The notes beneath the pieces are model-generated. The model was not told where the DNA came from, searched no databases, and saw only the letters and a list, made by a program, of their open reading frames with translations. A stretch of DNA of 64,000 nucleotides from Sphyrna mokarran (taxonomy: Eukaryota), in assembly GCA_024679065.1 (NCBI GenBank), contig JAGIQG010000048.1, positions 310,001 through 374,000 on the forward strand, read 5' to 3'. The position numbers were made by a program, and so were the translations under genes. Shown in pieces: positions 13,773 to 46,620 of this stretch; position 1 is the first letter of the stretch; each line of letters begins with the position of its first letter.

Positions 13773-13799
13773 GAATCACTCACTTCCATTAAAAACTTC

Positions 13800-16900: not shown

Positions 16901-16905
<5 letters not shown>

Positions 16906-17592: not shown

Positions 17593-17732
17593 GTGAGATG
17601 GTTCAGTTCACTCACATTTCAAACTGGCAGAACGGATTTGACAGATCTCTCAATGTTTCACTAATTAAAAACTGTAACATTAATGTCCCGCATCACAAAC
17701 ATCTGCTTCATTATTGTCTCTTTATTTTACAG

Positions 17733-21998: not shown

Positions 21999-22047
<49 letters not shown>

Positions 22048-24168: not shown

Positions 24169-24205
<37 letters not shown>

Positions 24206-24594: not shown

Positions 24595-26419
24595 AAGCAA
24601 CATCTATAGATATATCTCAATCATAGCATCACGGGAAAGGTCTTTGATAGGATGCCAATGTTGTTCCTCATCTGCCTGAAGAACCTGAAGCACAGCGTTG
24701 TGTTTGTGTTGGAAGATATACATATCACACCCATACATTCGTGAATCTCAGTCAGACATTCGACACTAGCATCAGAGACTACAACATTTGGGGGAACTAA
24801 GCGCGCTCCACCCAAAACAGCCTTGGTATCATTGCTGATATAGAAAAGGACAATTTACAACCCAGCTGATAACTTCATGGGCAACACTTGCAGTTGACTC
24901 AATCTCTCCGAAATTGTCCTCCTCAGTCATCAACAAAAGTGAAATATGAAGAAAAAACACACCAAGTTAAAATGAATGTGTTTCCTGTGATTCGAACTTG
25001 TATTGTAAATGGGAGGATGCTGCTTATCATTGGGACATTGATTCGGAAACAATATAACATTCTTTTCAGGCAATGCATAAAAACGCACACACAGATATTG
25101 TATCGTTGTCATTCTTTCCGACAAATTGTTCCCTNNNNNNNNNNNNNNNNNNNNNNNNNNNNNNNNNNNNNNNNNNNNNNNNNNNNNNNNNNNNNNNNNN
25201 NNNNNNNNNNNNNNNNNNNNNNNNNNNNNNNNNNNNNNNNNNNNNNNNNNNNNNNNNNNNNNNNNNNNNNNNNNNNNNNNNNNNNNNNNNNNNNNNNNNN
25301 NNNNNNNNNNNNNNNNNNNNNNNNNNNNNNNNNNNNNNNNNNNNNNNNNNNNNNNNNNNNNNNNNNNNNNNNNNNNNNNNNNNNNNNNNNNNNNNNNNNN
25401 NNNNNNNNNNNNNNNNNNNNNNNNNNNNNNNNNNNNNNNNNNNNNNNNNNNNNNNNNNNNNNNNNNNNNNNNNNNNNNNNNNNNNNNNNNNNNNAAAACT
25501 ACATCTTGGCTTCCAGAGAGCCAACTAAATTCAAATAGAATGACAAACTAATCTATATTTCCACAAGGCCATGTTTGCTGAGCTGGATGTTGAAGGTCCC
25601 ATGGTCTCCAACAGCTCCCAGGGCAACATCCCTCCTTTTTCACCAAAATGAACAAAAATACATTCCCACGGATTGGGCCATTTTGATCTGATGCTGATCT
25701 GGCAACATGGGAATATAGCCACAGGAATAGACCACTCAGCTCCTGAACTCTCCCCCCCCCGCACCATTCAATAAGATCATGGCTGATTTGTGCTCGAATC
25801 CATGTAACTTCCCGAGGCCCATATCTGTTGATACACCTGTTAATCTCAAACTTAAATCTAACAATTGAACCAGCACCATCCGCAATTGCAGAAGAGAGTT
25901 CCAAACATTCACCTCTCTCTCTCTGCGTGTAGAAATGCTTTCTATCTCCTGAAAGGTCTTTCCTATTTTTCAAAATGTGGCACTTTCTTCTTGAAACTCC
26001 AACTAATGGAAACAGTCCTCACCTGGGAGTATTTCAGAAATTTCTATCAGAACGGCCCTCAACCTTCTGAATTCGAGAGGAAAAGTCTTAAATTCCCTGA
26101 TCTCTCCTGGCAACTTACATTGAACTCCGTCCAGAGCCGAAATCTCTCCAAACGTGTGTTCCCCACACTTGCTCCCAGTTCTCTAAAATTGGGGTCAAAC
26201 AAGGATTTTGCACTATTGCAGTACAACATCTGTATCCGTATACCCCAGTCCTTTGGAAATGAAGGTCAGCCTTCCGTTGGGCTTCATGACTATTTTGTGC
26301 GGCAGATCGTGACATTTTAAGAAACCATGCGCCCAATCCCAAATCTTCTTTGGCATTCGTTAAATTTAACTTTGTGTCTTCCAAAAATTATATTTTGACC
26401 TCCCATTTAGCTTAGCTAA

Positions 26420-27025
26420 ATGTCTTAGCTTTTATTGGTAGGGGGATTGAATTTCAGAGCTACAACGTCATGTTGCAACTGTACAAAACTCTAGTGCGGC
26501 CGCACTTGGAGTATTGTGTGCAGTTCTGGTCCCCGCATTATAAGAAAGATGTGGAGGCAATGGAGAGGGTACAGAGGAGGTTTACCAGGATGTTGCCTGG
26601 TATGGAGGGCAGGTCTTATGAAGAGAGGCTGAGAGATTTGAGGTTGTTTTTGTTAGAAAGAAGGCGGCTAAGAGAGACCTTATTGAAACATATAAGATGA
26701 TTAGAGGTTTAGATAGGGTGGACAGTGATAGCCTTTTCCTAGGATGGAGAAAGCTAGCACGAGGGGACATAGCTTTAAATTAAGGGGTGGTAGTTATAGG
26801 ATGGATGTCAGAGGTTCTTTACCCAGAGGGTGGTAAGGGTATGGAATGCCCTGCCTGCGTCAGTTGTAGATGCGCCAAGTTTGGTGGTGTTTAAGAGGTT
26901 AGTAGATAAGTTTATGGACGAAAAAGGAATGGTTTAGGTTAGAGGGTCATTGCTTTTTCCTAATTGGTCGGCACAACATCGAAGGCCGAAGGGCCTGTTC
27001 TGCGCTGTAATGTTCTATGTTCTAT
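26420..27025 (+). mobile_element. CR1 LINE 3' fragment (copy at ~52548-53137)
   Basis: MLQLYKTLVRPHLEYCVQFWSP...; TGTTCTATGTTCTA tail. Confidence 0.93.
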
Positions 27026-28137
27026 TTGGATGTTTGACTTTTTGTCCCCATTATCTAAGCCGTTAATGAATATTGTAAATCATGGAGGCCCCATTATTTC
27101 CTGCCATCTAACCTTCATAATCCAGCAAGGGATGTGTACAAGGGGTCGCACCTTAAATTTTGGCACATCCCAGAAAGGGATGTGGTGTTACATTGATGGA
27201 TGTGAATTCTTGGTACACTAATATCATAGATCATACATGACAGCCATATTTTCTCAGTAGCCATAATGACAATGTTTTGCCAGCAGATGGAAATAAGATC
27301 TGGATGGGTTACATTACATTGAAACATGGATTACTGCAATACACTGGACCTTGTATCTGTTCATTTTGAATTAGCCCCCCTCTCTCTCTCTGATAAAACT
27401 TGTATTGCACCAGTACATGTCAATGTATACAGCACACAATCACCCTGATCCGGGTCAGACCTAACTTTGCAGTTCTGTCGCATGCAGCCCTGAGTGGGCG
27501 CTGGAACATTTAAACAATTAATCGCAGCACGGGTCTCAAATAAAACCCCCCGTTCTTAGTGATATGGGAACTCAGCAAATGGAGAAGTGTGATTGAATAT
27601 TCTCCAACTTGTCTGACACGTGACCCTGAAGCAGCACCCAAATATCTCCATACCACCCTGGTGCTTCAATGGAGGCCCCACACATCACATTAAGCATTCA
27701 CTGCCTGCTTCACAATTCCAGTGGTCTGAACTATAGACAACTTGTATACCAGCAACATAATCCTCCCACAGCACCTTCCAAACACATTAACTCTGACACT
27801 TCAAAACACATGGGCAGCAGATGCCCGAGAGTCCAATTGCTTGCAAGTGTCCATAAAACCTACACGCCATCCTGATCGAATAGTTCAGTGTCAATGGATG
27901 AAAATCTTCTAACTCCCTTTCTATCAGCACTGTGTGTGTCTTTACTCTGTTTGGAATTAAATAGTTCGAGGAGAGGGCTCATCACCACATTCTCAAAGTG
28001 AAAAACAAATGTTTCTTTACGGAAATGTTGTAAAGTAACTTTGAACGTGTCACATCTCTGCTTATATTCAATTAGCTCCCATCTCTGTTTGCATTGCAAT
28101 AGGCCATGTCTCGATCACACTGCAACATGTTCTATCA

Positions 28138-28600
28138 CAAAGAACAAAGAACAAAACAGCACGGGAAACAGGCCCTTCGGCCCAACGAGCCCGTGCCGCC
28201 ACCCCGATGTTCCCATCTCTACCCGTGATCCCTGTCTATGTTTATAGATCTATGGATTAAAAACCAAATTTGAGACAGTTTAGGGAGAATTTGTTTTGCC
28301 AATTAGCCTAAGAGCACATCTTTGGGATGTGGGAGGAAACCGGAGCACCCGGAGAAAAACCCACGCAAGGATGGGGAGAATGCGCAAATTCCCACAGACA
28401 CAGGGCCCAAATCCATGTATCTGCACAGCACAGCGATAGTCACTGAGCTGTCGTGTTGCCCATCAAATGGTCCAGGTCAAGCGTACACTAACGACGTGAA
28501 GCACTAGGATACTCTCTAAAAAACTCCAAGAGCAGCCCTCTCACAACCCATCGCGTGTATGTCCCTCGTTAGATAACAAGGTGGACCAAAGCACTTGTAG
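28138..28600 (-). mobile_element. 3' UTR fragment of SINE-carrying CR1 subfamily (copy at ~54250-54700)
   Basis: (AAAGAAC)n tail and V-domain; homologous to 29108-29520. Confidence 0.8.
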
Positions 28601-28716
28601 TTCTCCTTTAGCTCTGTACTCGGCTCAATATCAGTTGTTCCTAGATGAGACCAGGACCCTATTTAGACGGTACTTTCTGAGTTATAACTGTGCTGAACTA
28701 TATTTCAGTTAATATG

Positions 28717-29002
28717 GGTGGCTCGTTGGCACAATGATTATCACTGCTGTTTGACATCACCAGGGACCTGGCTTCACTTCCCAGCTATGGTGACTGTCTG
28801 TGTGGAGTCTGCCGGTTCTCCCTGTGGCTGCTGGTTCTGTCCCCGTCCCCCGGTTTCCTCCCACAGTCCGAAGGACGTGCTGTTTTGGTGAATTTCGGCC
28901 ATGCTACACTCTCCCTTAAATTCTACCCCAACAACCGAGTAGGGGATTTTTACAGTAACTTAATTACAGTGTTAATATCGGCCAAATGACACTGATAAAT
29001 AA
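28717..29002 (+). mobile_element. Diverged tRNA-derived V-SINE (copy at ~54827-55112)
   Basis: A/B-box-like head (TGGCACAATGATT...GGCTTCACTTCCC), V-domain CCCGGTTTCCTCCCACAGTCC, AT-rich end. Confidence 0.7.
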
Positions 29003-29107
29003 GTTTCAAAACTTCAATCTGACTGCGTCTCAATTCCGACTGCATCAAAACATTTATGTGTGTGTGTACTAAACTGAAACAAAATTTTTGCATTACAAGT
29101 GTTTCGG

Positions 29108-32050
29108 GAACAAAGAACAAAGAACAACACAGCCCCGGAAACAGGCCCTTCGGCCCAACGAGCCCGCGACGCCGTCCTAACGTCTTAATGACATATAGAG
29201 ACCAATTTGTTACCCAATCAGCCTAAGAGCACATCTTTGGGATGTGGGAGGAAACCGGAGCACCCGGAGAAAACCCACGCACCCACGGGGAGAACGCGCA
29301 AACTCCCGCAGACACAGGCGCAAATCTATGTGTCTGCACAGCAATAGTCTCTGAGCTGTCATGTTGCCATCAGATGGTCCAGTTTAAGCATACACTGACG
29401 ATGTGAAGCACTAGGCCACTCCTGAAGTAACATCCAAGAGCTGCCCTCGCACGACCTGCCAAATACATGCACCTTGTCGGTCAACAAGGTGGACCGAACA
29501 TCCTGTGGAAACAAACAGGATATTTAAACAGTCCTACTATATCCCTCTATCTGCAGACCGCTCATGTGGCTGTCCAAGAGACCCTTAAACAACCCTAGCG
29601 TGCCTGCTCCCACCACCTTACTCGGCAGTGCATTCCACACCCCCACTACCCTTTGTGTGAAAAAATGCCCTCTAATATTAGTCTTATACATAGCCCCCTC
29701 ACCCTAAGGCCGTGACCCCTCGTTCTATCCGAATCTAATGGTGGAAAAAGCTTACCACCATTTACTCTATCTATACCCCTCATAATCTTATATACCTCTA
29801 ATAGATCCCCTCTCAGCCGACGTCTTTCAAGGGAAAACAACCCCAGTGCGTTCAATCTTTCCTCGTAAGACAACCTTTCCATACCAGGCAGCATCCTGGT
29901 AAATCTCCTCTGCACTCTCTCCAGGGCCTCCACATCCTTCCGGTAGTAAGGCGACCAGAACTGGACACAGTACTCCAAGTGAGGCCTAACCAACGTTCTA
30001 TACACTTGCAACATCAGACTCCTACTCTTGTATTCTATACCCCTTCCTGTGAAGGCTAACATACCATACGCTTTCTTTATCACATTCTCCACCTGTACTG
30101 ACACCTTCAGAGACTTGTGAACCTGCACCCCCAGGTCTCTCTGCGTCTCTATACTCAGGATAGTTTTACCTTTTATCCTATAACTCCCCTCTACATTATT
30201 CCGGCCAAAATGCATCACCTCGCATTTATCCGGATTAAATTCCATTTGCCATCTATCTGCCCAATCTACCAGCCAATCGATGTCCTGTTGTATTGCCTGG
30301 CACTGCTCCTCAGTTCCTGCCAATCCAAGCATCTTAGTGTCATCAGCAAATTTGCTGATCACACCACCTACCCCCTCTACCAAGTCATTTATATAAATCA
30401 CAAATAGAAGAGGCCCTAATACTGAGCCCTGTGGCACACCACGAGTGACAGACCTCCAGTTGGAAAAAGAGCCTTCCACTACGACCCACTGTCTCCACCT
30501 CCCAAGCCAGTTCTCAACCCATCTACATACCTGGCCCTGTATCCCATGCGCCTTCACCTTTTCTATCAGCCTACCATGAGGAACCTTGTCAAACGCCTTA
30601 CTGAAATCCATGTAGACGACGTCAACGGCTTGTCCTTCATCAACCGTTTTTGTCACCTCTTCAAAAAATTCCACTAGATTCGTAAGGCACGATCTCCCCT
30701 TAACGAAGCCATGCTGCGTATCCCTGATCAGATCGCAGTGCTCCAGATGCTCATACATCCTGTCCCTGAGGATCCTCTCCATTAGCTTACCTATAACTGA
30801 AGTCAAGCTCACCGGCCTATAGTTCCCTGGTTTATCCCTCTGACCCTTTTTAAACAACGGTACTACATTTGCAATCCTCCAGTCCTCTGGGACCTCACCT
30901 GTGTCCAAAGAAGAGACAAAGATTTGTGTCAGAGGATCAGCAATGTCATCTCTCACCTCCCTTAGCAGCCTGGGATAAAAACCATCAGGCCCCGGAGCTT
31001 TATAAAGCTTTATGCTACCTAAAAGCCCCAACACCTCTTCCCTCGTAATGGTTATTTCCTTTAACGGGTCCTCAAATTCCTCAAAGCCGGCACCAGACAT
31101 CAGGCCCCTCTCCCTCGTGAATACTGACGCAAAGTATTCATTCAAGATCTCCCCCATTCCCTCAGGCTCTAAGCATAGTTCCCCTCCTCTGTCCCTGAGA
31201 GGTCCAATCTTCCCTCTAACCAGCCTTTTGCTCCTTACATAGGAGTAAAATGCCTTAGGATTTTCCTTAATCCTACCTGCCAAAGCCATTTCGTGGCCCC
31301 TTTTTGCCTTTCTGACACCCATTTTAAGATCCCGTCTACACTCTCTATATTCTTCCAGCGCTGTCTCTGTCCCCAGTTGCCTAGATCTAATGTACGCCTC
31401 CCGCTTCTTCCTGACCAAGTCCTCAATATCCCTAGTAACCCACGGTTCTCTCATCCTACCTTTCCCATCCTTCCTCCTTACCGGCACATGTCTTTCCTGC
31501 AAAGATTTTAGTTTTCCCTTGAAAGACTCCCACATGTACTGCGTTGACCTACCCTCGAACAGCTTATCCCAGTCGGTATTCTTAAGATCCTGCCTAATCC
31601 GGCTGTATCTAGCCCTCCCCCAGTTTAACACCCTCCCCTTAGGGCAGGCTTCATCTTTTTCCATTAATACCCTAAAGCAGACAGAGTTGTGGTCACTATT
31701 CGACACATGCTCTCCTACTACAACGTCAACCACCTGCCCTGGCTCATTCCCCAGAACCAGATCCAGTATAGCCCCCTCTCTAGTCGGGCTATCCACATAT
31801 TGCTCCAAGGACCCTTCTAAAACACGCTGTACAAATTCCTCCCCGTCCGCACCTTCCGCTCTCGGCACCTTCCAATCTACCCCAGGGAAATTGAAATCTC
31901 CCACTACAACTACCCTATTCTTCCTACACTTACCTAAAATGTCCCTGCATATCCCTTCTTCCACGGCCCGCGGGCTGTTGGGCGGTCTGTAGTACACACC
32001 CAACATCGTAACCTCTCCCTTCCTATTCCTCAACTCCACCCATTCCAGCT
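29108..32050 (-). mobile_element. 5'-truncated CR1 LINE with 797-aa open ORF2 (partial APE endonuclease plus RT)
   Basis: VYYRPPNS, VGDFNFP, SDHN (APE); [43 protein letters not shown] (RT); frameshift near C-terminus; ~410-bp 3' UTR with (GTTCTTT)n tail. Confidence 0.98.
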
Positions 32051-32513
32051 CGGGGAAATAGTCTCTGAGAATCCACCCTATCTATTCCTCTCAACATCTT
32101 ATAAACCTCTATCAGGTCGCCTCTCAACCTACGTCTCTCCAGTGAGAAGAGTCCCAGCTCCCTCAACCTATCTTCATAAGAAATACTGTGAACAAATTGT
32201 CTGTGTTGCTTTAAAATAATTTGCCCCTTTCCCTCCTGATTTTTATCAAAGCTCTCATTACTTCCTTCTCAATTATTCAGATTGGAAATGTCAGGTATTT
32301 TCAAATATTCCCTGTCAGCACGTTATAATCCTAACCATCTTATGGTGAAGGAGGAAACTGATTCCAATCTTTACTCGCTGTAGATTTATTCAGAGTGAAA
32401 CATTACAGGTATCTCACTCCTAATACCACTCCGTGCTCTGTCAGTAAGTGTCTATATGTGCTCATGTAAACATCTCATCACTGCTTGTGTATATTTAACC
32501 CCAAATTATACAA

Positions 32514-33800
32514 TTAATACCCAGAGGATCTCTGATCGGTGAGACTGCCATAATGTCTCAGCAGGCTGGATGATTCAGGGAATCTTTTCCTACACTCGGA
32601 GCAGGTGAACAGCCTCTCTCGTCCGTGTGAACTTGCTTGTGTTTCCGCAGGCTGGAAGGATCGGCAAATCCCTTCCCGCACACGGAGCAGGCGAAAGGCG
32701 TCTCCCCGGTGTGAACCCGGCGGTGCACTCGCAGGCTGGACAACTCGGAGAATCCTTTCCCGCACACAGAGCAGGCGAACGGCCTCTCCCCGCTGTGAAC
32801 CCGCCGGTGTTTCCAGAGGCTGGAGGAGTCCGTGAAGCCCTTCCCACACTCGGCGCAACCGAAGGGCCTTTCCCCAGAGTGAACGCGCTGGTGTGTCAGC
32901 AGACTTGTGGACCTGGTAAACCTCTTGCCGCACACGGAGCAGGGGAACGGCCTCTCCCCGCTGTGAACCGCCTGGTGTCGTAGCAAGCTCGATAACTGAG
33001 TGAATCCCTTCCCGCACACGGAGCAGGTGAATGACCTCTCCCCGGTGTGAACCGCCTGGTGGGTCTGCAGGGTGGAGGACGCACTGAACCCTTTCCCGCA
33101 CACGGAGCAGGTGAACGGCCTCTCTCCCGTGTGGACTCGCTGATGTATCAGCAGGGGGGATGACCGAGTGAATCCCTTCCCGCAGTCGGAGCAGGCGTAC
33201 GGCCTCTCCCCGGTGTGAACTCTCCGGTGCTTCTGCACAGCGGAGGAATTACTGAATCCCTCGCCACACTCTGAGCAGCTGAAGAGCTTCTCCCTGCTGT
33301 GTATTCGCTGGTGTCTGCGCAGGTTGGATGAAAGAGTGAATCCCTTCCCGCACACGGCGCAGGCGAATGACCTCTCCCCGCTGTGAACTCGCTTGTGTCT
33401 CCGGAGGCTGGACGGGTCTCCGAATCCCTTCCCGCACTCAGTGCAGGCGAAAGGCCTCTCCCCCGTGTGAGTGCGTCCGTGGGCCAGGAGCCGGGACGCA
33501 TCAGCGAAACCCTTGCCGCACTCAGCGCAGGCGAACGGCCTCTCCCCACGGTGAATTTTCTGATGTGTCACCAGGTTGGATAACTGAGAGAATCAATCCC
33601 TTCCCACAATCAGGGCAGGTGAACGGCTTCTCCCCAGTGTGACTGCGCCGATGGATCTCCAGCTCACACGGTGCTTTGAATCCTTTTCCACAGTCCCCAC
33701 ATTTCCACTGTTTCTCCCTGATGCGGGAGGCCTTCTGTTCCTCCAGGTTTGACGATCAAATGAAGCCTCGTCCTCACCGAGAACAGATGTACAGTCTCTC
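32514..33800 (-). pseudogene. Tandem C2H2 zinc-finger gene, copy 1 (frameshifted)
   Basis: 11 intact fingers with TGERP-type linkers in ORF 32558-33571. Two further upstream fingers are cut off by a 4-bp AATC duplication (33591-33598). Last finger frameshifted; no in-frame ATG. Confidence 0.85.
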
Positions 33801-34008
33801 TCAATGTAAATGGTGCAATGTTAGTCAGACTGTGTAACCTGAACACTCTCACTCAGGTTTATACTTCTCAGTGCTTTTCCAATCACACTGAAGTTCAATC
33901 TTTTCCCACTGACAAACAAAAACAAAAAATTCTCCTTCTAGAATCCAAGGCGATGATATTCACATTGAGATTAATTGAGTGATTCTGTCAGATCTGAGCG
34001 TGATGTTT

Positions 34009-34258
34009 TAGAACATAGAACATTACAGCACAGAACTGGCCCTTCGGCCTTCGATGTTGCGCCGACCAATATAAAAAGCAATGCCCCTACAAACTAAACC
34101 ATTCCCTTCTCTTCCATATACTTATCAACTAACCTCTTAAACGTCAACAAACTTGGCGCATCTACAACTGCCGCAGGCAGGGCATTCCACTCCCGAACCA
34201 CCCTTTGGGTAAAGAACCTAACTCTGACATCCGTCCTATAACTATCACCCCTTAATTT
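34009..34258 (-). mobile_element. CR1 3' end inserted in the putative ZNF terminal exon (copy at ~60031-60280)
   Basis: KLRGDSYRTDVRVRFFTQRVVREWNALP...; lies just inside acceptor ttccttcacag|gatattag (minus strand, 34307/34306). Confidence 0.9.
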
Positions 34259-35149
34259 ACTTTTGTTTCGATATTTCTGTCCTGTAAATCCTCCCCTTCT
34301 AATATCCTGTGAAGGAAGTTTACAATAGAGAAGAAATTCAGAATGGACAATTCTCGATTCAATTGAACTATTTTCTATTCTTGTAGTCCTGAAAAATTGG
34401 AAATTTCTGTCCCACACATTCGGCACCAAATGGTCACTCTCCCGATTCTGCTGGTTCTTGCTCCAGGACACACAGACCTGAAAATCTTCAGGCAAGCTGT
34501 TCACCCATCTATCCCTCATACAACTGGAGTATAATTTGTGTGAAAGCTCGATGTTGCTTTATTAGAGTTGGGAAATATGTTTACAAGGTTTGGACTTCAA
34601 GTGAAATAAACTGGAATTCACCCCACACGAGGACATGATTTCAAATGATGTTCGTCATTCAAAAGAAATAAACCTGTCAGGCAGTGATACAGAGGGGCAG
34701 TGGGACTGACTGGATTGTTCGATAGAGAATTGACATGCATTCAAGTTGCCAAATGGACATTTTTTGTGCTGTAATGTCTCACTGACTGGAAATATATAAC
34801 ATAACTACATTACTATACTCCAAGAATAAAAATAAATGTACCTTACTGCAGCATCAACAATAATATATCCAACACACACAATAACAAAACTAGAAATACC
34901 TCTCCACACAGTCTGATAATCTCCAAATAAACAATTTCCCAGCCAATCCTAATGGAATAAAGCAAAGAATAAGGTTTCATTAATTTTATACTTCCACTGC
35001 AATAATCAAAATAAAATCAACATAAACGAAGCACACATTCACAAACAATGGCACTTCAACAAGTAGGAGAAATTTGATTTTAAATAACAACAGGTTCCAT
35101 AAAAAAAAATCACAAAGATTTACAAACGTTTACGAATATTTACAAACAT

Positions 35150-36403
35150 CACAAACCAGCCTCCCGTCCACTGACTCTGTCTACACTTCCCGCTGCCTCA
35201 GCAAAGCAGCCGGTATAATTAAGGACCCCATATACACCCTGGGCATTCTCTCCTCCACCTTCTTCCTGGCTTGGGGCACTGTCTGTGGGGAGTTTGCACA
35301 GTTTCCTCGTGTCTGCGTGGGTTTCCTCCCCGGTTTCCTCCTGCAGATGTGCGGGTTGGGTTAATTGGCCATGCTAAAAACAAAATACCCTTAAGAGTTG
35401 TGAGATGCACAGGTTAGAGGGATTAGCAGATAAATATATAGGGGATATGGGGATCAGGCCTGGGTGGGATTGTGGTCGGTGCAGACTCGATGGGCCAAAT
35501 GGCCTTCTTCTGCACTGTAGGGATTCTAGGATTTCTTCTGTCGGGAAGAAGATACAAAAGTCTGAGGACACGGGCCAACCAACATAAGAACAGCTTCTTC
35601 CCTGCTGCTGTCAAACTTTTACATGCACCCAGGCTGATCTTTCTCTGCACTTAAGCTATAACTGTGATACTACATTCTGCACTCCCTTCTTTCCTTTTCT
35701 ATGAATTGTATGTTTTGTATAACGTGCAAGAAACAATACTTTTCAATATACAGTAACAAAACTAGAAATACCTCTCCATAGAGACTGATAATCTTCAAAT
35801 AAATTATTTCCCAGCCAATCCTAGTGGAATAAAGCAAAGAATAAGGTTTCATTAATTTAATACTTTTACAGCAATAATCAAAATAAAATGAACATAAATG
35901 AAACATGCATTCACAGACAATGATACTTTTTAGGAACTGGGTAAATTTAACTTTTAAATAATTCAGACAATAACAGCGGGTTTCGCAAAATCACAAACAT
36001 CTACAAACGTTTACAAATATTTACAAACATCACAAACCAGCCTCCCGTCCACTGACTCTGTCTACACTTCCCACTGCCTCGGGGAAAAGCAGCCGGTATA
36101 ATTCAGGACCCCACGCACCCCAAACATTCTCTCTTCCACTTTCTTCCAGAGGGGAAACAAATACAAAAGTCGGAGGTCACGCACCAAACACAAGAACAGC
36201 TCCTTCCCTACAGCTGTCAGACTTTTGAATGGATCGACCTTGCACGAAGTTGGCCCTCCTCTGCACCCTCGCTACAACCGTAACACTAGTCTGCATTCTC
36301 TCGTTTCCTTCTCTATGAACGGCATGCTTGGTCTGTATAACATGCGAGAAACAATACTTTTCAGGATATGTTAATACATGTGACAATAATAAATCAAATC
36401 AAA
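35150..36403 (+). mobile_element. Two Rex1/Babar-like LINE 3' ends within a local ~0.9-kb tandem duplication; first interrupted by a V-SINE (35268-35532)
   Basis: TSLPSTDSVYTSRCLSKAAGIIKDP...SGRRYKSLRTR...KNSFFPAAVKLL; flanking AT-rich unit repeated at ~34880 and ~35755. Confidence 0.7.
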
Positions 36404-36488
36404 CATTTCCTCCCTCCACAGATTTGTCTCTAATTCCAGTTACAGAGTCCCACAAATCTCTGTATTTCCCAGGTATGAGTTGAACTCG

Positions 36489-36990
36489 TAGAACACTACA
36501 GCACAAACAGGCCCTTCGGCCCACAAGTTGTGCCCATCATATCTATACCTACCAGGCCATTGAACTATCTGTAACTCCCAATCCCATGTACTCATCCAGA
36601 AGTCTCTTAAAAGACCCCAGCGAGTTCGCCTCTACCACCACAGACGGCAACCGATTCCATTCACCCCCCACCCAACTCTGAATGAAAAACTTACCTCTAA
36701 CATCTCCTCTGTACTTGCCCCCCAGCACCTTAAACCTGTGTCCTCTCGTAGCGACCATTTCAGCCCTGGGAAATAGCCTCCGAGAATCCACTCTATCTAT
36801 TCCTCTCATCATCTTATAAACCTCTATCAGGTCGCCTCTCAACCTTTGTCTCTCCAGGGAGAAGAGACCCAGCTCCCTCAACCTAAGGCATGCCCCCTTA
36901 ATCCAGGAACATCCTTGTAAATCTCCTCTGCACCCTCTCAATAGCTTCCACATCCTTCCTGTAGTGAGGTGACCAGAACTGCGCACAGTC
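36489..36990 (-). mobile_element. CR1 3' fragment (mirror ~43940-44440; copy ~62508-63005)
   Basis: [23 protein letters not shown]...; same subfamily as the 7525 copy. Confidence 0.92.
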
Positions 36991-37274
36991 CTCATTTCCT
37001 TTGACAGGAGGTTGGGCTGGACTCTCCCCCTCACCTCCACACACACACACACACACACACAGCCCCAGGAGTCACAGCCTCTGGATCTCTCCCCAGTAGG
37101 TTCTCCCACTCAGCTGCTTTTTCCAGCTGCTCAGACTCCCTTCTCCCACTCCCTGAACTCTTCCCCTTCCCTCCTGAAAACCTCCCTCTGTCTCACTCAC
37201 TGACCCTGGGTTGGATGGGGAGTGAGGGAGGGAGGGAGGGGGGGACACACAGGAAGAAGGTTCAATCTGTATGA

Positions 37275-37550
37275 GAGGCTCAACCTCCAACGTCACAAAG
37301 CCCACTCAACTGATTGGCTGGAGTACAAGAGTCCTTCCGGTCTGCCAGGGCTCCTGATTGGTCAGCACTTGGTTGGGGGGGGAAACAATGGGTCTATTTT
37401 CCGGGATGGGCGGAGGGGGAGGAGACAGGGTGTGCGCCTGCGCACTGGAAGCCCATGAGGTCATTGTGGAGCGGGCTGATTCCTATTGGCTGATTCAGGT
37501 GGGGGGTGTTCCCGGTGTGACGTCACAAGGCGGAAGTTGGTCAATGAGCT
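37275..37550. promoter_or_regulatory. TATA-less, probably bidirectional promoter, copy 1
   Basis: Inverted CCAAT boxes (37313, 37357, 37485), ETS TTCCGG 37335 and GCGGAAGT 37530, Sp1 GGGCGG 37408, NRF1 TGCGCCTGCGCA 37433-37444, CRE TGACGTCA 37518-37525. GTGAGT donors point outward on both strands (37195-37200 minus; 37680-37685 plus). Confidence 0.8.
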
Positions 37551-38044
37551 TCAGAGTGAAACTCCCTCCTCTGAGGAACTCAATGTCTTCCCCTCTTCTC
37601 CATTTCTTTTCTCATTCCAGGGATGGAGGGGGGAATTGGGGACTTGCAGCAACTGGGGAGGGGGGGTGGGGGCAAGGAAGTGAGTCCAGGGAGGCTGCAG
37701 ATTCTGGAAAGGTTAAGACAAACATTGGAATTAGGAGCAGGACTAGCCCGGGTATCTTTCTGTCTCAAAGTCATTGACAACCTTCAACTCCCTCAGTTGG
37801 ACAGATCTACTCATCTGGACAATAGGGTAGCCTCTTATCCATTGTTCACAATGAAAGGGGGAGCTTTCCCAGGAGAGGACTAATATTTAAGTGAGGGGCA
37901 GAGATATGTTCAACGTAGTTACGTGTCATGTTATTTATGATTCTCTATTTCTTGTCTTGGATTATGTAGCACTTTGTCAATGTTACCTATTTGATTTGAT
38001 TGATTCTTACCCCGTGTCCAAAAAAAGTGCAGATGGAAGCAGGT

Positions 38045-38703
38045 GATAAGCTTTTTCCACCATTAGATTCGGATAGAACGAGGGGTCACGGCCTTAGGGT
38101 GAGGGGGCTATGTATAAGACTAATATTAGAGGGCATTTTTTCACACAAAGGGTAGTGGGGGTGTGGAATGCACTACCGAGTAAGGTGATGGGAGCAGGCA
38201 CGCTAGGGTTGTTTAAGGGTCTCTTGGACAGCCACATGAGCGGTCTGCAGATAGAGGGATACAGCAGGACTGTTTAAATATCCTGTTTGTTTCCACAGGA
38301 TGTTCGGTCCACCTTGTTGACCAACAAGGTGCATGCATTCGGCAGGTCGTGCGAGGACTGCTCCTGGATGTTGCTTCAGGAGTGGCCTAGTGCTTCACGT
38401 CATTCGTGTATGATTAAACTGGATCATCAGATGGGCAACATGACAGCTCAGAGACTATCGCTGTTGCTGTGCAGACACATGGATTTGGGCCTGTGTCTGC
38501 GGGAGTTTGCGCGTTCTCCCCGTGGTTGTGTGGGTTTTCTCCGGGTGCTCCGGTTTCCTCCTACATCCCAAAAATGTGCTCTTAGGCTGATTGGGTAACA
38601 AAATGGTCCCTATATGTCATTAAGACGTTAGGACGGCGGCGTGGGCTCGTTGGGCCGAAGGGCCTGTTTCCCGTGCTGTGTTGTTCTTTGTTCTTTGTTC
38701 TTT
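38045..38703 (+). mobile_element. 3' end of SINE-carrying CR1 subfamily (mirror ~42226-42885)
   Basis: KLFPPLDSDRTRGHGLRVRG plus long UTR plus (GTTCTTT)3. Confidence 0.9.
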
Positions 38704-38704
38704 G

Positions 38705-39597
38705 AAAGCAAATTACTGCAGAAGCTGGAATTGGAAACCAAAAGAGAAAAGGCTGGAAAATCTCAGCAGGTCTGGTAGAACATAGAACATTACAGCGCAG
38801 AACAGGCCCTTCGGCCTTCGATGTTGCGCCGACCAATTAAGAAAAAGCAATGACACTCTAACCTAAACCATTCCCTTTTCGTCTATAAACTTATCTACTA
38901 ACCTCTTAAACGCCACCAAACTTGGAGCATTTACAACTGACGCAGGCAGGGCATTCCATACCCTTACCACTCTCTGGGTAAAGAATCTACCTCTGACATC
39001 CGTCCTATAACTACCACCCCTTAATTTAAAGCTATGTCCCCTCGTGCTAGCTTTCTCCATCCTAGGAAAAAGGCTATCACTGTCCACCCTATCTAAACCT
39101 CTAATCATCTTATATGATTCAATAAGGTCTCCAAGCACATCAGGAGAGAAAAGAGCTGACGTTTTAAGTCTAAATGACTCTTTGTCGATGCTAAAAGGCA
39201 TAAAAAAAGGGGGATATTTGTAGTGCAGGGTGAGAGACTGAACAATGAGTCATAGACACAAAAACCAGGGGAAAAAGCTGCTAATGGCAGCCCATCGACA
39301 ATAATGCGTGTGAATGGCCTAATAGCAGAGGAGCTGTAATCAGAGAGTAAACTGTGACAGATGAAGATGTTGGGCGGGGGTGGGGAGAAAGGGTGGGAGA
39401 GGGGTAATATTTACAAAAAGGGGAAGCAAAGGAGTTTCTATGACTATGACTCGTTTTTCATTCCCCACCCCTGCGTATGAATATCTCCCACTTTCTATGT
39501 ATTTTAGCTTTGGCAAAGAGTCATCTCGACTTGAAACACCAGCTCTTTCCTGTCCTTATAGATGCTGCCAGAGATTTTCCAGCATTTTCTCTTTTGA
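38705..39597. mobile_element. Penelope-like inverted-repeat element with nested CR1 3' fragment (38777-39130, minus); mirror ~41330-42225
   Basis: Ends are mutual reverse complements (AGAGAAAAGAGCTGACGTTT..GACTCTTTG / CAAAGAGTC..GAAACACCAGCTCTTT) carrying hammerhead-like stem+GAAA. Confidence 0.65.
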
Positions 39598-42500
39598 ATC
39601 CAAAGATATGTGGGTTCGGTTGATTGGCCAATTTATCATGGTCATGGTGTCGGGGGAATTAGCGGATACGTTATGTGGGGTTGCAGGAATAGGGGCCTTA
39701 GGGTTGTGGTTGGTACAGACTCAGTGGGCCGAATGGCCGCCTTCTGCACTGCAGGGATTCTATTCTTGGATTAGTGTATAATGAAAAGCATTGTTTTTTT
39801 TGCCTGCTATAGAGACAAAACATACTGTGCATAGAAAAGGAAAGGAGAGGGTAGAATATGTAGTGTTACATATGTACGTATATGTCATGTACATTTCCAG
39901 TGATGCAAACATGACAGCATAGAAGGAATCCATTTGGCAACTCAAATCCATGGCAACTCTCGGTAGAGCAGTTCCGTCCATTCCATTCTCCCTCGATATC
40001 CTCATTCTCCTGAGCTTCATGTCACAAATAGGCAACCTTGATGATGATGTGGGTGTGCGACTGGAAGCTCAGCTTGCGGTGGGAGATTTCACCCCTTGTC
40101 AGGAGGAAGGACGGGTTTGTGGGAGAGGGTGTGGAATTTGTAGTGGGAACTGAACTCAATGGGTTCAGTGTTTATGTGGAAGAACTTTTAGCACTGGATG
40201 TCAGAGAAGCCAGAACGGTGTATGAGTTAGAAGGGAGCTTGGAGCTGATGGTGTTCACACCGACCTGCTACCTGGGTCCTTATCGGTGATGGAGTTTGGG
40301 AGATTCTGCCGACGTTTCTGTCGAGTTTAGATGTTTGAAATCCCTCTTCTCGCCTCTCCCATTTCTCTTTGAAAACCTCAGACAGATTATTGTGTAGTAG
40401 GCCCAGCCCAGGGGCAACATACCTTCCTGAGGGAACATTAGTCAACAGTTGGGGTTGTTATGACAATTAAGCGGCTCAACTTATCTTTCCTCACTCCAGC
40501 TCCAAAAAACATGCCACCTGGGCTGGGCCTACACAAGAATCTGTCTGAGGTGACAGAGAGAAATGGGAGAGGCGAAGAAGAGGGATTTCAAACATCTAAA
40601 CTCGGCAGAAACGTCGGCAGAATCTCCCAAACTCCATCACCGATAAGGACCCAGGTAGCAGGTCGGTGTGAACACCATCAGCTCCAAGCTCCCTTCTAAC
40701 TCATACACCGTTCTGACTTCTCGGACATCCAGTGCTAAAAGTTCTTCCACATAAACACTGAACCCATTGAGTTCAGTTCCCCCTACAAATTCCACACCCT
40801 CTCCCACAAACCCGTCCTTCCTCCTGACCAGGGGTGAAATCTCCCACCGCAAGCTGAGCTTCCAGTCGCACACCCACATCATCATCAAGGTTGCCTATTT
40901 GTGACATGAAGCTCAGGAGAATGAGGATATCGAGGGAGAATGGAATGGACGGAACTGCTCTACCGAGAGTTGCCATGGATTTGAGTTGCCAAATGGATTC
41001 CTTCTATGCTGTCATGTTTGCATCACTGGAAATGTACATGACATATACATACATATGTAACACTACATATTCTACCCTCTCCTTTCCTTTTCTATGCACA
41101 GTATGTTTTGTCTCTATAGCAGGCAAAAAAAAACAATGCTTTTCATTATACACTAACCCAAGAATAGAATCCCTGCAGTGCAGAAGGCGGCCATTCGGCC
41201 CACTGAGTCTGTACCAACCACAACCCTAAGGCCCCTATTCCTGCAACCCCACATAACGTATCCGCTAATTCCCCCGACACCATGACCATGATAAATTGGC
41301 CAATCAACCGAACCCACCTATCTTTGGATTCAAAAGAGAAAATGCTGGAAAATCTCTGGCAGCATCTATAAGGACAGGAAAGAGCTGGTGTTTCAAGTCG
41401 AGATGACTCTTTGCCAAAGCTAAAAGGCATAGAAAGTGGGAGATATTCATACGCAGGGGTGGGGAATGAAAAACGAGTCATAGTCATAGAAACTCCTTTG
41501 CTTCCCCTTTTTGTAAATATTACCCCTCTCCCACCCTTTCTCCCCACCCCCGCCCAACATCTTCATCTGTCACAGTTTACTCTCTGATTTCAGCTCCTCT
41601 GCTATTAGGCCATTCACACGCATTATTATCTATGGGCTGCCATTAGCAGCTTTTCCCCCTGGTTTTTGTGTCTATGACTCATTGTTCAGTCTCTCACCCT
41701 GCAGTACAAATATCCCCCTTTTTTATGCCTTTTAGTATCGACAAAGAGTCATTTAGACTCAAAACGTCAGCTCTTTTCTCTCCTTATGTGCTTGGAGACC
41801 TTATTGAAACATATAAGATGATTAGAGGTTTAGATAGGGTGGACAGTGATAGCTTTTTTCCTAGGATGGAGAAAGCTAGCACGAGGGGACATAGCTTTAA
41901 ATTAAGGGGTGGTAGTTATAGGACGGAGATCAGAGGTAGGTTCTTTACCCAGAGGGTGGTAAGGGTATGGAATGCCCTGCCTGCTGCAGTTGTAGATGCG
42001 CCAAGTTTGGTGGCGTTTAAGAGGTTAGTAGATAAGTTTATGGACGGAAAGGGAATGGTTTAGGTTAGAGGGTCATTGCTTTTTCTTAATTGGTCGGCGC
42101 AACATCGAAGGCCGAAGGGCCTGTTCTGCGCTGTAATGTTCTATGTTCTACCAGACCTGCTGAGATTTTCCAGCCTTTTCTCTTTTGGTTTCCAATTCCA
42201 GCTTCTGCAGTAATTTGCTTTCAAAGAACAAAGAACAAAGAACAACACAGCACGGGAAACAGGCCCTTCGGCCCAACGAGCCCACGCCGCCGTCCTAACG
42301 TCTTAATGACATATAGGGACCATTTTGTTACCCAATCTGCCTAAGAGCACATTTTTGGGATGTAGGAGGAAACCGGAGCACCCGGTGAAAACCCATGCAA
42401 CCACGGGGAGAACGCGCAAACTCCCGCAGACACAGGCCCAAATCCATGTGTCTGCACAGCAACAGCAATAGTCTCTGAGCTGTCATGTTGCCCATCTGAT

Positions 42501-43379
42501 GATCCAGTTTAATCATACACTGACGACGTGAAGCACTCGGCCACTCCTGAAGTAACATCCAGGAGCAGCCCTCTCACGACCTGCCGAATGCATGCCCCTT
42601 GTTGGTCAACAAGGTGGACTGAACAGCCTGTGGAAACAATTAAAGTATTTAAACAGTCCTGCTATATCCCGCTATCTGCAGACCGCTCATGTGGCTGTCC
42701 AAGAGACCCTTAAACAACCCTAGCGTGCCTGCTCCCACCACCTTACTCGGCAGTGCATTCCACACCCCCCACTACCCTTTGTGTGAAAAAATGCCCTCTA
42801 ATATTCGTCTTATACATAGCCCCCCTCACCCTAAGGCCGTGACCCCTCGTTCTATCCGAATCTAATGGTGGAAAAAGCTTATCACCTGCTTCCATCTGCA
42901 CTTTTTTTGGACACGGGGTAAGAATCAATCAAATCAAATAGGTAACATTGACAAAGTGCTACATAATCCAAGACAAGAAATAGAGAATCATAAATAACAT
43001 GACACGTAACTACGTTGAACATATCTCTGCCCCTCACTTAAATATTAGTCCTCTCCTGGGAAAGCTCCCCCTTTCATTGTGAACATTGGATAAGAGGCTA
43101 CCCTATTGTCCAGATGAGTAGATCTGTCCAACTGAGGGAGTTGAAGGTTGTCAATGACTTTGAGACAGAAAGATACCCGGGCTAGTCCTGCTCCTAATTC
43201 CAATGTTTGTCTTAACCTTTCCAGAATCTGCAGCCTCCCTGGACTCACTTCCTTGCCCCCCACCCCCCCCCCTCCCCAGTTGCTGCAAGTCCCCAATTCC
43301 CCCCTCCATCCCTGGAATGAGAAAAGAAATGGAGAAGAGGGGAAGACATTGAGTTCCTCAGAGGAGGGAGTTTCACTCT

Positions 43380-43655
43380 GAAGCTCATTGACCAACTTCC
43401 GCCTTGTGACGTCACACGGGGAACCCCCACCTGAATCAGCCAATAGGAATCAGCCCGCTCCACAATGACCTCATGGGCTTCCAGTGCGCAGGCGCACACC
43501 CTGTCTCCTCCCCCTCCGCCCATCCCGGAAAATAGACCCATTGTTTCCCCCCCCAACCAACTGCTGACCAATCAGGAGCCCTGGCAGACCGGAAGGACTC
43601 TTGTACTCCAGCCAATCAGTTGAGTGGGCTTTGTGACGTTGGAGGTTGAGCCTCT
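43380..43655. promoter_or_regulatory. Promoter copy 2 (inverted, right palindrome arm)
   Basis: CRE 43407-43414, NRF1 43485-43496; CCAAT, ETS and Sp1 motifs retained. Confidence 0.78.
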
Positions 43656-46313
43656 CATACAGATTGAACCTTCTTCCTGTGTGTCCCCCCCTCCCTCCCT
43701 CCCTCCCTCCCTCCCCATCCAACCCAGGGTCAGTGAGTGAGACAGAGGGAGGTTTTCAGGAGGGAAGGGGAAGAGTTCAGGGAGTGGGAGAAGGGAGTCT
43801 GAGCAGCTGGAAAAAGCAGCTGAGTGGGAGAACCTACTGGGGAGAGATCCAGAGGCTGTGACTCCTGGGGCTGTGTGTGTGTGTGTGTGGAGGTGAGGGG
43901 GAGAGTCCAGCCCAACCTCCTGTCAAAGGAAATGAGGACTGTACACAGTTCTGGTCACCTCACTACAGGAAGGATGTGGAAGCTATTGAGAGGGTGCAGA
44001 GGAGATTTACAAGGATGTTCCTGGATTGGGGGGGCATGCCTTAGGTTGAGGGAGCTGGGTCTCTTCTCCCTGGAGAGACAAAGGTTGAGAGGCGACCTGA
44101 TAGAGGTTTATAAGATGTTGAGAGGAATACATAGAGTGGATTCTTGCAGGCTATTTCCCAGGGCTGAAATGGTCGCTACGAGAGGACACAGGTTTAAGGT
44201 GCTGGGGGGGCAAGTACAGAGGAGATGTTAGAGGTAAGTTTTTCATTCAGAGTGTGGGGGGGGTGAATGGAATCGGTTGCCATCTGTGGTGGTAGAGGCG
44301 AACTCGCTGGGGTCTTTTAAGAGACTTCTGGATGAGTACACGGGATTGGGAGTTACAGATAGTTCAATGGCCTGGTAGGTATAGATATGATGGGCACAAC
44401 TTGTGAGCCGAAGGGCCTGTTTGTGCTGTAGTGTTCTATGAGTTCAACTCATACCTGGGAAATACAGAGATTTGTGGGACTCTGTAACTGGAATTAGAGA
44501 CAAATCTGTGGAGGGAGGAAATGTTTGATTTGATTTATTATTGTCACATGTATTAACATATCCTGAAAATTATTGTTTCTGGCATGTTATACAGACAAAG
44601 CATGCCGTTCATAGAGAAGGAAACGAGAGAATGCAGACTAGTGTTACGGTTGTAGCGAGGGTGCAGAGGAGGGCCAACTTCGTGCAAGGTCGATCCATTC
44701 AAAAGTCTGACAGCTGCAGGGAAGAAGCTGTTCTTGTGTTTGGTGCGTGACCTCCGACTTTTGTATTTGTTTCCCCTATGGAAGAAAGTGGAAGAGAGAA
44801 TGTTTGGGGTGCGTGGGGTCCTGAATTATACCGGCTGCTTTTCCCTGAGGCAGCGGGAAGTGTAGACAGAGTCAGTGGACGGGAGGCTGGTTTGTGATGT
44901 TTGTAAATATTTGTAAACGTTTGTAGATGTTTGTGATTTTGCGAAACCCGCTGTTATTGTCTGAATTATTTAAAAGTTAAATTTACCCAGTTCCTAAAAA
45001 GTATCATTGTCTGTGAATGCGTGTTTCATTTATGTTCATTTTATTTTGATTATTGCTGTAAAAGTATTAAATTAATGAAACCTTATTCTTTGGTTCATTC
45101 CATTAGGATTGGCTGGGAAATAATTTATTTGAAGATTATCAGTCTCTGTGGAGAGGTATTTCTAGTTTTGTTACTGTATATTGAAAAGTATTGTTTCTTG
45201 CACGTTATACAAAACATACCATTCATAGAAAAGGAAAGAAGGGAGTGCAGAATGTAGTATCACAGTTATAGCTTAAGTGCAGAGAAAGATCAGCCTGGGT
45301 GCATGTAAAAGTTTGACAGCAGCAGGGAAGAAGCTGTTCTTATGTTGGTTGGTCTGTGTCCTCAGACTTTTGTATCTTCTTCCTGACAGAAGAAATCCTA
45401 GAATCCCTACAGTGCAGAAGAAGGCCATTTGGCCCATCGAGTCTGCACCGACCACAATCCCACCCAGGCCTGATCCCCATATCCCCTATATATTTATCTG
45501 CTAATCCCTCTAACCTGTGCATCTCGCAACTCTTAAGGGTATTTTTTTTTTAGCATGGCCAATTAACCCAACCCGCACGTCTGCAGGAGGAAACCGGGGC
45601 AGAAACCCACGCAGACACGAGGAAACTGTGAAAACTCCCCACAGACAGTGCCCCAAGCCAGGAAAAAGGTGGAGGAGAGAATGCCCAGGGTGTATATGGG
45701 GTCCTTAATTATACCGGCTGCTTTGCTGAGGCAGCGGGAAGTGTAGACAGAGTCAGTGGACGGGAGGCTGGTTTGTGATGTTTGTAAATATTCGTAAACG
45801 TTTGTAAATCTTTGTGATTTTTTTTTATGGAACCTGTTGTTATTTAAAATCAAGTTTCTCCTACTTGTTGAAGTGCCATTGTTTGTGAATGTGTGCTTCG
45901 TTTATATTGATTTTACTTTGATTATTGCAGTGGAAGTATAAAATTAATGAAACCTTATTCTTTGCTTTATTCCATTAGGATTGGCTGGGAAATTGTTTAT
46001 TTGGAGATTATCAGACTGTGTGGAGAGGTATTTCTAGTTTTGTTATTGTGTGTGTTGGATATATTATTGTTGATGCTGCAGTAAGGTACATTTATTTTTA
46101 TTCTTGGAGTATAGTAATGTAGTTATGTTATATATTTCCAGTCAGTGAGACATTACAGCACAAAAAATGTCCATTTGGCAACTTGAATGCATGTCAATTC
46201 TCTATCGAACAATCCAGTCAGTCCCATTGCCCCTCTGTATCACTGCCTGACAGGTTTATTTCTTTTGAATGACGAACATCATTTGAAATCATGTCCTCGT
46301 GTGGGGTGAATTC

Positions 46314-46620
46314 TGGGATTATTTCAGACTGCAAATTGTACATTCCATGCAGTTCTCAAATGTTCATCAGCTTCAGAATATTAGTGGGGAAACTTTTCTG
46401 TCCTCTATACTTCGTTTGTCAGACGTTTTCAAGGACTTCTCTTACAAGGGCACAANNNNNNNNNNNNNNNNNNNNNNNNNNNNNNNNNNNNNNNNNNNNN
46501 NNNNNNNNNNNNNNNNNNNNNNNNNNNNNNNNNNNNNNNNNNNNNNNNNNNNNNNNNNNNNNNNNNNNNNNNNNNNNNNNNNNNNNNNNNNNNNNNNNNN
46601 NNNNNNNNNNCAGAGTTAGC

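What the first reader, a model, noticed from the sequence alone, without database searches (positions are those of the whole stretch)
34614..46313. 11.7-kb palindrome with two facing promoters: candidate long-hairpin-RNA locus over TE sequence
Seen: two ~5.8-kb arms with scattered differences and a ~95-bp spacer. Each arm carries an intact NRF1/CRE/ETS/CCAAT/Sp1 promoter (37275-37550, 43380-43655) with an inward-facing GTGAGT donor. Between the promoters lie ~2.9-kb arms containing two CR1 subfamilies, a V-SINE and a Penelope-like element. Established: NRF1/ETS/CCAAT promoters are often bidirectional, and transcribed inverted repeats give dsRNA that is a substrate for Dicer or ADAR. Inference: inward transcription through the centre would fold into a kb-scale hairpin, and the two promoters are convergent. 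The locus could therefore produce small RNAs against young CR1/SINE families, while the outward direction of the left promoter serves a zinc-finger gene. That would be a coupled ZNF and hairpin-RNA module.
Basis: partly seen in the sequence, partly recalled or inferred. Interest (0 to 1): 0.72.

Follow-up and report, generated by a model that had tools for sequence, protein, structure and literature searches.

The report
Fold-back seam in shark antibody array
This 11.7-kb mirror-image repeat is one seam in an array of eight shark-type antibody (IgM) gene units that alternate in direction; it likely arose when DNA folded back inside an ordinary zinc-finger gene, so its inward-facing promoters are likely leftovers rather than a purpose-built hairpin-RNA gene.

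Summary
The palindrome is in the assembly as described (34614-46313, arms 97.6% identical, 95-bp spacer). Arm differences carry an 8-fold CpG-transition excess, so they are mutations, not a read fold-back. The hairpin-RNA module is not supported. A second palindrome with the same centre lies 25 kb away. An unfolded copy (contig C1196) runs from the same spacer into an intact five-finger gene, and paralogs show the same order. The inward side is therefore exon 1/intron of a zinc-finger gene that was cut off at the fold. The promoter is a family element with half the CpG of its paralogs, the GTGAGT 'donor' is in 0 of 10 paralogs, the outward zinc-finger gene lacks a start codon, and mismatches show no G-U bias. 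The context is the interesting part: the 436-kb contig holds eight IgM V-D-J-C units, 96-99% identical, in strictly alternating orientation, with V differences concentrated in CDRs; the palindrome sits in the tail-to-tail seam of units 7 and 8. Likely history: fold-back, 26-kb tandem duplication across the centre, local arm-to-arm conversion. A 2026 preprint calls inversion-built IGH loci unreported outside birds. No reads or expression data were examined.

The parts
34614..40416 (+). Left arm of the palindrome: intron of ZNF-A, bidirectional promoter, first exon and intron of the lost partner ZNF-B
40417..40511 (.). 95-bp spacer = intron sequence of ZNF-B, about 83 bp upstream of its candidate acceptor in the unfolded copy C1196; indel-rich between copies, exact letters unreliable
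40512..46313 (-). Right arm; ends at the tandem-duplication junction
37170..37720 (.). Zinc-finger-cluster family promoter and first exons, CpG-depleted relative to paralogs (left-arm copy)
43208..43760 (.). Right-arm copy of the promoter
38042..38702 (+). 5'-truncated CR1 insertion with microsatellite tail and a 5-bp target-site duplication; in both arms here, absent from both arms of the second palindrome
42223..42887 (-). Mirror copy of that CR1 insertion (3.8% different)
39950..40416 (+). Non-TE centre sequence = family intron sequence that precedes the acceptor and finger exon in paralogs
32558..34306 (-). ZNF-A finger exon (12 fingers detected): no in-frame ATG, 4-nt frameshift near 33595, CR1 fragment at 34009-34260; likely pseudogene
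46313..46314 (.). Junction of a ~26-kb tandem duplication: sequence resumes at the equivalent of 20468 on the + strand; no microhomology at the joint itself, a shared 8-mer just beyond it
20468..46313 (+). First copy of the tandem-duplicated segment; second copy is 46314 to ~70985 (runs past the window)
58668..59777 (-). Second ZNF-A copy, 369-aa stop-to-stop frame, no Met, no frameshift
63263..63738 (.). Promoter copy in the left arm of the second palindrome (centre at ~65813, just outside the window)
340..17664 (+). IgM minilocus 7 of 8: JH (~386), Cmu1 (9767-10135), Cmu2 (10282-10662), Cmu3 (~12010-12346), Cmu4 plus secretory tail (13362-13772), TM exon (~17480-17610); VH lies ~1 kb left of the window

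Best explanation
The palindrome lies in the tail-to-tail seam between two of eight alternately oriented IgM gene units, and it is likely a by-product of a fold-back inverted duplication inside a zinc-finger gene followed by a tandem duplication across the fold. Step 1 (shown): the ancestral sequence was a head-to-head pair, ZNF-A, promoter, ZNF-B, downstream of an IgM unit. Step 2 (inferred): a break or template switch about 83 bp before ZNF-B's acceptor folded back over a ~100-bp loop, removed ZNF-B's coding exon and produced a palindrome with arms of at least 56 kb that doubled the IgM unit. Step 3 (junction and collinearity shown, order inferred): a ~26-kb tandem duplication, 20468 to 46313, copied the centre, leaving this short-armed palindrome and the long-armed one at ~65813. 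Step 4 (inferred): a CR1 insertion and about 0.6 kb of flank were copied arm to arm. The promoter is predicted to be weak or silent in the germ line, and any hairpin RNA would be incidental.
For: Unfolded copy: C1196:1-420 matches arm and spacer at 93-96% and continues to a candidate acceptor at 503 and an intact 139-aa five-finger ORF. Promoter-centre-acceptor-finger order recurs in 2 paralogous genes and centre-acceptor-finger in a third, among 8 regions examined; head-to-head pairs in 2 of them. Same spacer in both palindromes. 46314-70985 is collinear with 20468-46313 at 96-99%, apart from ~4 kb at 46911-50885. Eight V-J-Cmu1-4-TM units alternate + - + - + - + - (chance 0.008). CpG transitions per site are 8x, 7x and 15x the non-CpG rate in three palindromes. 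The CR1 insert with target-site duplication and 6 neighbouring sites group the two arms of this palindrome. Three of three tail-to-tail IgM pairs examined on C994 are older inverted duplicates at 69-90%. Promoter: 10 CpG per 400 bp against 20-29 in 9 of 10 paralogs.
Against: No reads were laid, so neither junction has support outside this assembly. The spacers differ by 6-11 small indels per ~100 bp among the three copies, which looks like uncorrected sequencing error, so junction microhomology (2 bp at the second fold, 0 here) is unreliable. The copies form a near-star tree (1.1-1.8%), so the order of steps 2-4 is only weakly resolved. The spacer is shorter than the 766-70,466 bp seen in human fold-back cases (PMC3907307, passages). 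The promoter varies slightly less than its flanks (11 of 528 versus 101 of 2843 columns, p=0.086) and keeps its motifs in all five near-identical copies but one GC box, so residual activity is possible.
Confidence: 0.8

Rival explanations
1. One reading: a functional hairpin-RNA locus coupled to a zinc-finger gene, making small RNAs against young CR1/SINE families.
For: Motifs present in both arms; near-perfect 2.9-kb duplex possible and no AATAAA on the + strand; inner CR1 pieces 92-98% identical to other copies; slightly lower promoter variation, p=0.086; natural inverted repeats can give endo-siRNA in mouse (PMC11239679, passages).
Against: Anatomy fully explained by a truncated ZNF-B; donor absent from 10 of 10 paralogs and CpG halved; ZNF-A has no ATG in 4 of 4 copies and a frameshift in 3 of 4; no arm homogenisation overall; no G-U strand bias; the second palindrome lacks one of the CR1 pieces; no Rfam match at 39000-40600.
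Confidence: 0.07
2. Same origin as the best explanation, but the promoter still fires, so the fold yields unselected dsRNA (ADAR or Dicer substrate), which could also touch ZNF-B paralogs through shared intron sequence.
For: Promoter motifs retained; duplex and lack of AATAAA. Compatible with, not opposed to, the best explanation.
Against: CpG loss suggests germ-line methylation; no expression data examined.
Confidence: 0.25
3. Assembly artefact: fold-back or chimeric long reads from fewer real loci were stitched into an alternating contig.
For: The contig is separate from the IgM-rich scaffold C994 and consists almost wholly of copies of one unit; spacers look unpolished; V3, V6 and V7 are identical over 303 nt; no independent reads examined.
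Against: 105 substitutions against 12 gap runs between the arms, with a transition and CpG excess; copy-specific TE insertions with a target-site duplication; V differences concentrated in CDRs, 11 of 22 versus 9 of 79 codons, p=2.4e-4 with rough boundaries; older decayed inverted IgM pairs on C994.
Confidence: 0.08

Closest known systems
Cartilaginous-fish IgM miniloci (VH-D1-D2-JH-Cmu; PMC2435157 passages, PMC12227049 passages, PMC8692893 passages)
   Same: Self-contained V-D-J-Cmu1-4-secretory/TM units, many per genome; V to J within ~1.4 kb here.
   Different: Here eight units lie 46-111 kb apart (V to V) in strict alternation at 96-99% identity. The passages read say linkage and distribution of clusters are poorly known and did not mention orientation.
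Avian IGH inversion architecture (bioRxiv 10.64898/2026.09.05.749481; abstract, section 5, passages)
   Same: Heavy-chain locus expanded by recurrent inverted duplication, genes on both strands, palindromes with non-palindromic spacers.
   Different: Bird inversions average 2.8 kb and copy V pseudogene donors; here whole ~50-kb rearranging units are copied. That preprint says no analogous architecture is reported outside birds; 'shark' and 'cartilaginous' do not occur in its main text.
Fold-back inverted duplication with adjacent deletion (Hermetz et al. 2014, PMC3907307, passages)
   Same: Short non-duplicated spacer between direct and inverted copies, loss of the sequence beyond the fold, at most a few bases of inverted microhomology.
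   Different: Here a multi-copy array with 1-2% divergence instead of a de novo patient event; spacer ~100 bp versus 766 bp or more; repeated folds.
Hairpin/endo-siRNA loci from natural inverted repeats (mouse Optn and oocyte endo-siRNA, PMC11239679 passages; Drosophila hpRNA recalled)
   Same: A transcript through the centre would form a long duplex.
   Different: No transcript, small RNA, target or pairing-preserving evolution shown; G-U test negative.
Sex-chromosome palindromes under arm-to-arm conversion (PMC3403216, search listing only; 99.97% arm identity recalled)
   Same: Large palindromes holding multicopy genes; one apparent conversion tract. A bamboo-shark X and Y each carry six Ighm genes (10.1101/2025.03.13.642935, section 8).
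   Different: Arms here are only 97-99% identical; sex linkage of this contig was not tested.

Membership tests
Hairpin-RNA / endo-siRNA locus | Long inverted repeat able to form a duplex in one transcript | tested here: met
   2525 of 2877 inner bases in perfect runs of 21 or more, longest 266
Hairpin-RNA / endo-siRNA locus | Transcription through both arms | not tested
   No reads were laid; two candidate RNA holders at small share, one guessed RNA run from the best holder's organism
Hairpin-RNA / endo-siRNA locus | Dicer-dependent 21-23-nt RNAs from the arms | not testable with these tools
   No small-RNA library was listed
Hairpin-RNA / endo-siRNA locus | Evolution that preserves pairing (G-U strand bias, arms kept alike) | tested here: not met
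   16 versus 15 G-U-compatible mismatches; inner arms 2.1% apart versus 1.8-2.6% to the other palindrome
Hairpin-RNA / endo-siRNA locus | Intact active promoter | tested here: inconclusive
   Motifs present, CpG halved against 9 of 10 paralogs, variation slightly low, p=0.086
Fold-back inverted duplication | Short unduplicated spacer continuous with the ancestral strand | tested here: met
   Spacer matches the unfolded copy C1196
Fold-back inverted duplication | Loss of the sequence beyond the fold | tested here: met
   ZNF-B acceptor region found at high identity only in C1196; next best 75% (40 of 103 candidates scored)
Fold-back inverted duplication | Inverted microhomology at the junction | tested here: inconclusive
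   2 bp at the second fold, none here, in an indel-rich stretch
Cartilaginous-fish IgM minilocus (surrounding unit) | VH, D, JH and four Cmu exons with secretory tail and TM exon in one unit | tested here: met
   8 of 8 units have open V, a J motif, a D flanked by 12/22 RSS, open Cmu1-4 and TM; C1-set domains; tail-including matches to mu chains. The second D, leader and most splice sites were not checked
Avian-type inversion-built IGH locus | Genes on both strands through inverted duplication | tested here: met
   4 plus and 4 minus, strictly alternating, on C1082; 9 plus and 16 minus on C994 with 12 of 24 neighbours switching (my count)
Avian-type inversion-built IGH locus | V pseudogene donor pool for somatic gene conversion | tested here: not met
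   Copies are whole units with open V frames; alike in architecture only
Palindrome under arm-to-arm conversion | Arms more alike than paralogs outside the palindrome | tested here: inconclusive
   Not overall; yes locally at 38042-39276; the 49-kb-arm palindrome of units 6/7 is 0.86% apart

The most novel reading that the evidence does not exclude
Shark IgM miniloci multiply by repeated fold-back inverted duplication of whole V-D-J-C units, building alternating head-to-head and tail-to-tail arrays whose palindromic arms exchange sequence while CDRs diversify; inversion-built heavy-chain loci would then not be unique to birds but present in the oldest lineage with antibodies.
Probability: 0.55. 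Interest if true: 0.65.

Novelty: new variant of a known kind. Interest (0 to 1): 0.45.

Why it matters
As a hairpin-RNA gene the locus is probably not special. As a seam it gives a base-level record of how a shark IgM cluster array grew: fold point, unfolded ancestor, tandem-duplication junction and a conversion tract can all be read. How cartilaginous fishes reach 15-200 IgM clusters and how these are arranged was described as unclear in the passages read, and a 2026 preprint treats inversion-built IGH loci as bird-specific. The claim can be tested at once by dot-plotting IgM regions in other elasmobranch assemblies.

Tried and rejected
Sequencing runs: 23 listed, best DNA holder 0.67 of words and possibly the assembly's own sample; none was laid, so they are no evidence either way. 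Rfam at 39000-40600: 0 matches at E<=0.1. A pre-existing strong DNA hairpin at the fold in the unfolded copy: only -8.9 kcal/mol over 150 nt, no shuffle control, not pursued. ZNF-A dN/dS among three copies: pN/pS 1.1, 0.47 and 0.35 on 9-20 differences, too few to read. Pfam scan of ZNF-B gave nothing because the frame I gave was wrong; the right frame is. Y/X location: considered because bamboo-shark sex chromosomes carry Ighm clusters, not testable here. Haplotype concatenation: would not explain inverted copies sharing a fold or eight distinct units. Literature: searches listed no title or abstract start describing alternating shark IgM arrays; figures and supplements of PMC12227049 and PMC8692893 were not seen and may show orientations. 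Earlier scan findings near this place: none; word search: none.
Full report
Observation. Self-alignment confirms arms at 34614-40416 and 40512-46313, 97.6% identical, with a 95-bp spacer. The promoter motifs and the inward GTGAGT are present in both arms. Between the arms there are 105 substitutions in 5709 columns (61 transitions, 44 transversions) and 12 gap runs. CpG transitions run at 0.067 per CpG position against 0.0082 elsewhere; the two other palindromes tested give 7- and 15-fold. That spectrum is expected of germ-line mutation in methylated DNA (established knowledge) and not of a read fold-back.

The palindrome is not unique. The window is G000:C1082:310001-374000. The centre sequence recurs as a second palindrome at window ~65813 with a 100-bp version of the same spacer, and once, unfolded, at the start of contig C1196. 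The promoter has 167 first-look candidates in the genome (40 scored, 58 matches): five at 97-100% and the rest, mostly 70-77% over the core, on C994, C749 and C794. One 98% copy on C994 carries only ZNF-A plus promoter, without a palindrome and without the CR1 fragment at 34009-34260.

What the inward side is. C1196:1-420 matches arm and spacer, then continues 83 bp to a candidate acceptor at 503 and an intact 139-aa five-finger ORF, ZNF-B. That acceptor region has no other close copy; the next best is 75% (40 of 103 candidates scored). Among 8 regions examined, two paralogous genes on C994 show promoter, centre sequence, acceptor and finger exon in the same order, a third shows the last three, and two regions hold head-to-head finger genes around the same promoter type. 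So the inward direction is exon 1 and intron of an ordinary zinc-finger gene whose coding exon was lost at the fold. The 400 bp upstream of the first-exon core hold 10 CpG (o/e 0.34) against 20-29 (0.58-0.74) in 9 of 10 paralogs and 6 in one, which suggests decay. Against decay, the promoter varies a little less than its flanks among five copies (11 of 528 versus 101 of 2843 columns, p=0.086). ZNF-A has no Met in the finger frame in 4 of 4 copies, where several paralogs read MEKPWKC, and a 4-nt frameshift in 3 of 4.

Hairpin tests. A transcript through the centre would pair well: 2525 of 2877 inner bases lie in perfect runs of 21 or more, and there is no AATAAA on the + strand from 37540 to 46400. 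Nothing indicates selection for it. Mismatches that would be G-U split 16 to 15 between strands. The inner arms are 2.1% apart while each is 1.8-2.6% from the arms of the second palindrome; in the outer part all five copies are 1.1-1.8% apart. Rfam finds nothing at 39000-40600. No RNA data were examined.

The surroundings. The window's first 18 kb encode four Ig C1-set exons, a secretory tail and a TM exon; the last exon with its tail matches mu chains in the PDB, though the top-scoring row is an IgG hybrid matched twice. Across the 436-kb contig there are eight V-D-J-Cmu1-4-TM units, oriented + - + - + - + - (0.5^7 = 0.008), 96-99% identical, with open V, C and TM frames. This organisation identifies a cartilaginous fish (PMC2435157, passages). 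V3, V6 and V7 are identical over 303 nt; the other pairs differ by 5-21 nt, with amino-acid variation at 11 of 22 CDR codons and 9 of 79 framework codons (rough boundaries; p=2.4e-4). Units 6 and 7 form a palindrome with 49-kb arms at 98.6%. Units 7 and 8 face tail to tail, matching in blocks at 97-98% from contig 294,021 to 350,416 against 375,863 to the contig end; the finding lies in this seam. On scaffold C994, 25 further Cmu4 places are mixed in orientation (9 plus, 16 minus; 12 of 24 neighbours switch; my count, 150 of 298 candidates scored), so strict alternation is a property of C1082 only; the three tail-to-tail pairs I chose to inspect there are all older inverted duplicates at 69-90%, without the zinc-finger cassette.

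Likely history. (1) Ancestral ZNF-A/promoter/ZNF-B pair downstream of an IgM unit (shown by C1196 and paralogs). (2) Fold-back in the ZNF-B intron, giving a palindrome of more than 110 kb (inferred; anatomy as in PMC3907307, passages, but with a shorter spacer). (3) A ~26-kb tandem duplication across the centre: after 46313 the sequence resumes at the equivalent of 20468 and runs collinear to ~70985 at 96-99%, except 46911-50885. This accounts for the short right arm. (4) A CR1 insertion with a 5-bp target-site duplication is in both arms here and in neither arm of the second palindrome; six sites up to 39276 group the same way, which reads as arm-to-arm conversion, while seven sites group left arms against right arms and four group them crosswise. 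Two independent folds at the same site are a less economical alternative that I cannot exclude: the two junctions differ by 2 nt in an unreliable stretch.

Caveats. The three spacer versions differ by 6-11 small indels per ~100 bp. Inverted duplicates are reported to lower nanopore accuracy (PMC7229812, search listing) and short inverted repeats to raise local mutability (PMC5737083, search listing); I cannot tell these apart and do not know the platform. No reads were examined, so the junctions rest on one assembly.

Comparison and novelty. IgM miniloci, fold-back duplications and zinc-finger clusters are known. A 2026 preprint describes avian IGH loci built by recurrent inverted duplication and states that no analogous architecture has been reported in another vertebrate lineage; its main text does not mention sharks (10.64898/2026.09.05.749481; abstract, section 5, passages). 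Passages of PMC12227049 and PMC8692893 give cluster numbers and linkage but no orientation in what I saw; their figures and supplements were not seen. Searches listed no paper describing an alternating shark IgM array. The shark case differs from birds in copying whole rearranging units rather than V pseudogene donors. Verdict: real feature, hairpin-RNA module unlikely (0.07), fold-back by-product in an inversion-built IgM array likely (0.8); new variant of a known kind; interest 0.45.

Noticed in passing
G000:C1082 whole contig; window 340-17664: Eight IgM miniloci in strict alternating orientation, 96-99% identical, V variation concentrated in CDRs; V3, V6 and V7 identical.
   Followed up: yes
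C1082 V genes, e.g. contig 309163-309240: The V 3' RSS nonamer departs from consensus in the same way in 8 of 8 units; effect on rearrangement unknown.
   Followed up: no
C1082 V8 (contig ~420500-420770, minus): V8 has Arg to Trp in framework 2 and two changes before CDR1; it may be a weaker gene.
   Followed up: no
L014-L016 (C1196): C1196 links ZNF-B to the spacer region of the head-to-head IgM palindromes (C1082 180605 and 282448), so the ancestral unit appears to close on itself as a ~70-kb direct repeat.
   Followed up: partly
window 20949-24045; contig 33408, 121643, 231235: A 56-bp satellite, in both orientations, lies at or near the tail-to-tail seams of the IgM units; traces also between a C994 pair. 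It may seed the inversions.
   Followed up: partly
window 34610-38000 versus C994:11314.6-11318.0 kb: The right arm of the second palindrome shares 12 sites with the C994 copy against the other three arms (1.1% apart), suggesting exchange between contigs.
   Followed up: partly
window 29646-32081 and 55757-57889 (minus); contig 383518-385980: CR1 LINE copies with long open endonuclease/reverse-transcriptase frames (811, 710 and 821 aa) carried within the duplicated segment.
   Followed up: no
L017-L026 (C994:11.27-11.37 Mb): Eleven finger arrays in 100 kb; C994 interleaves zinc-finger clusters with at least 25 IgM units.
   Followed up: no
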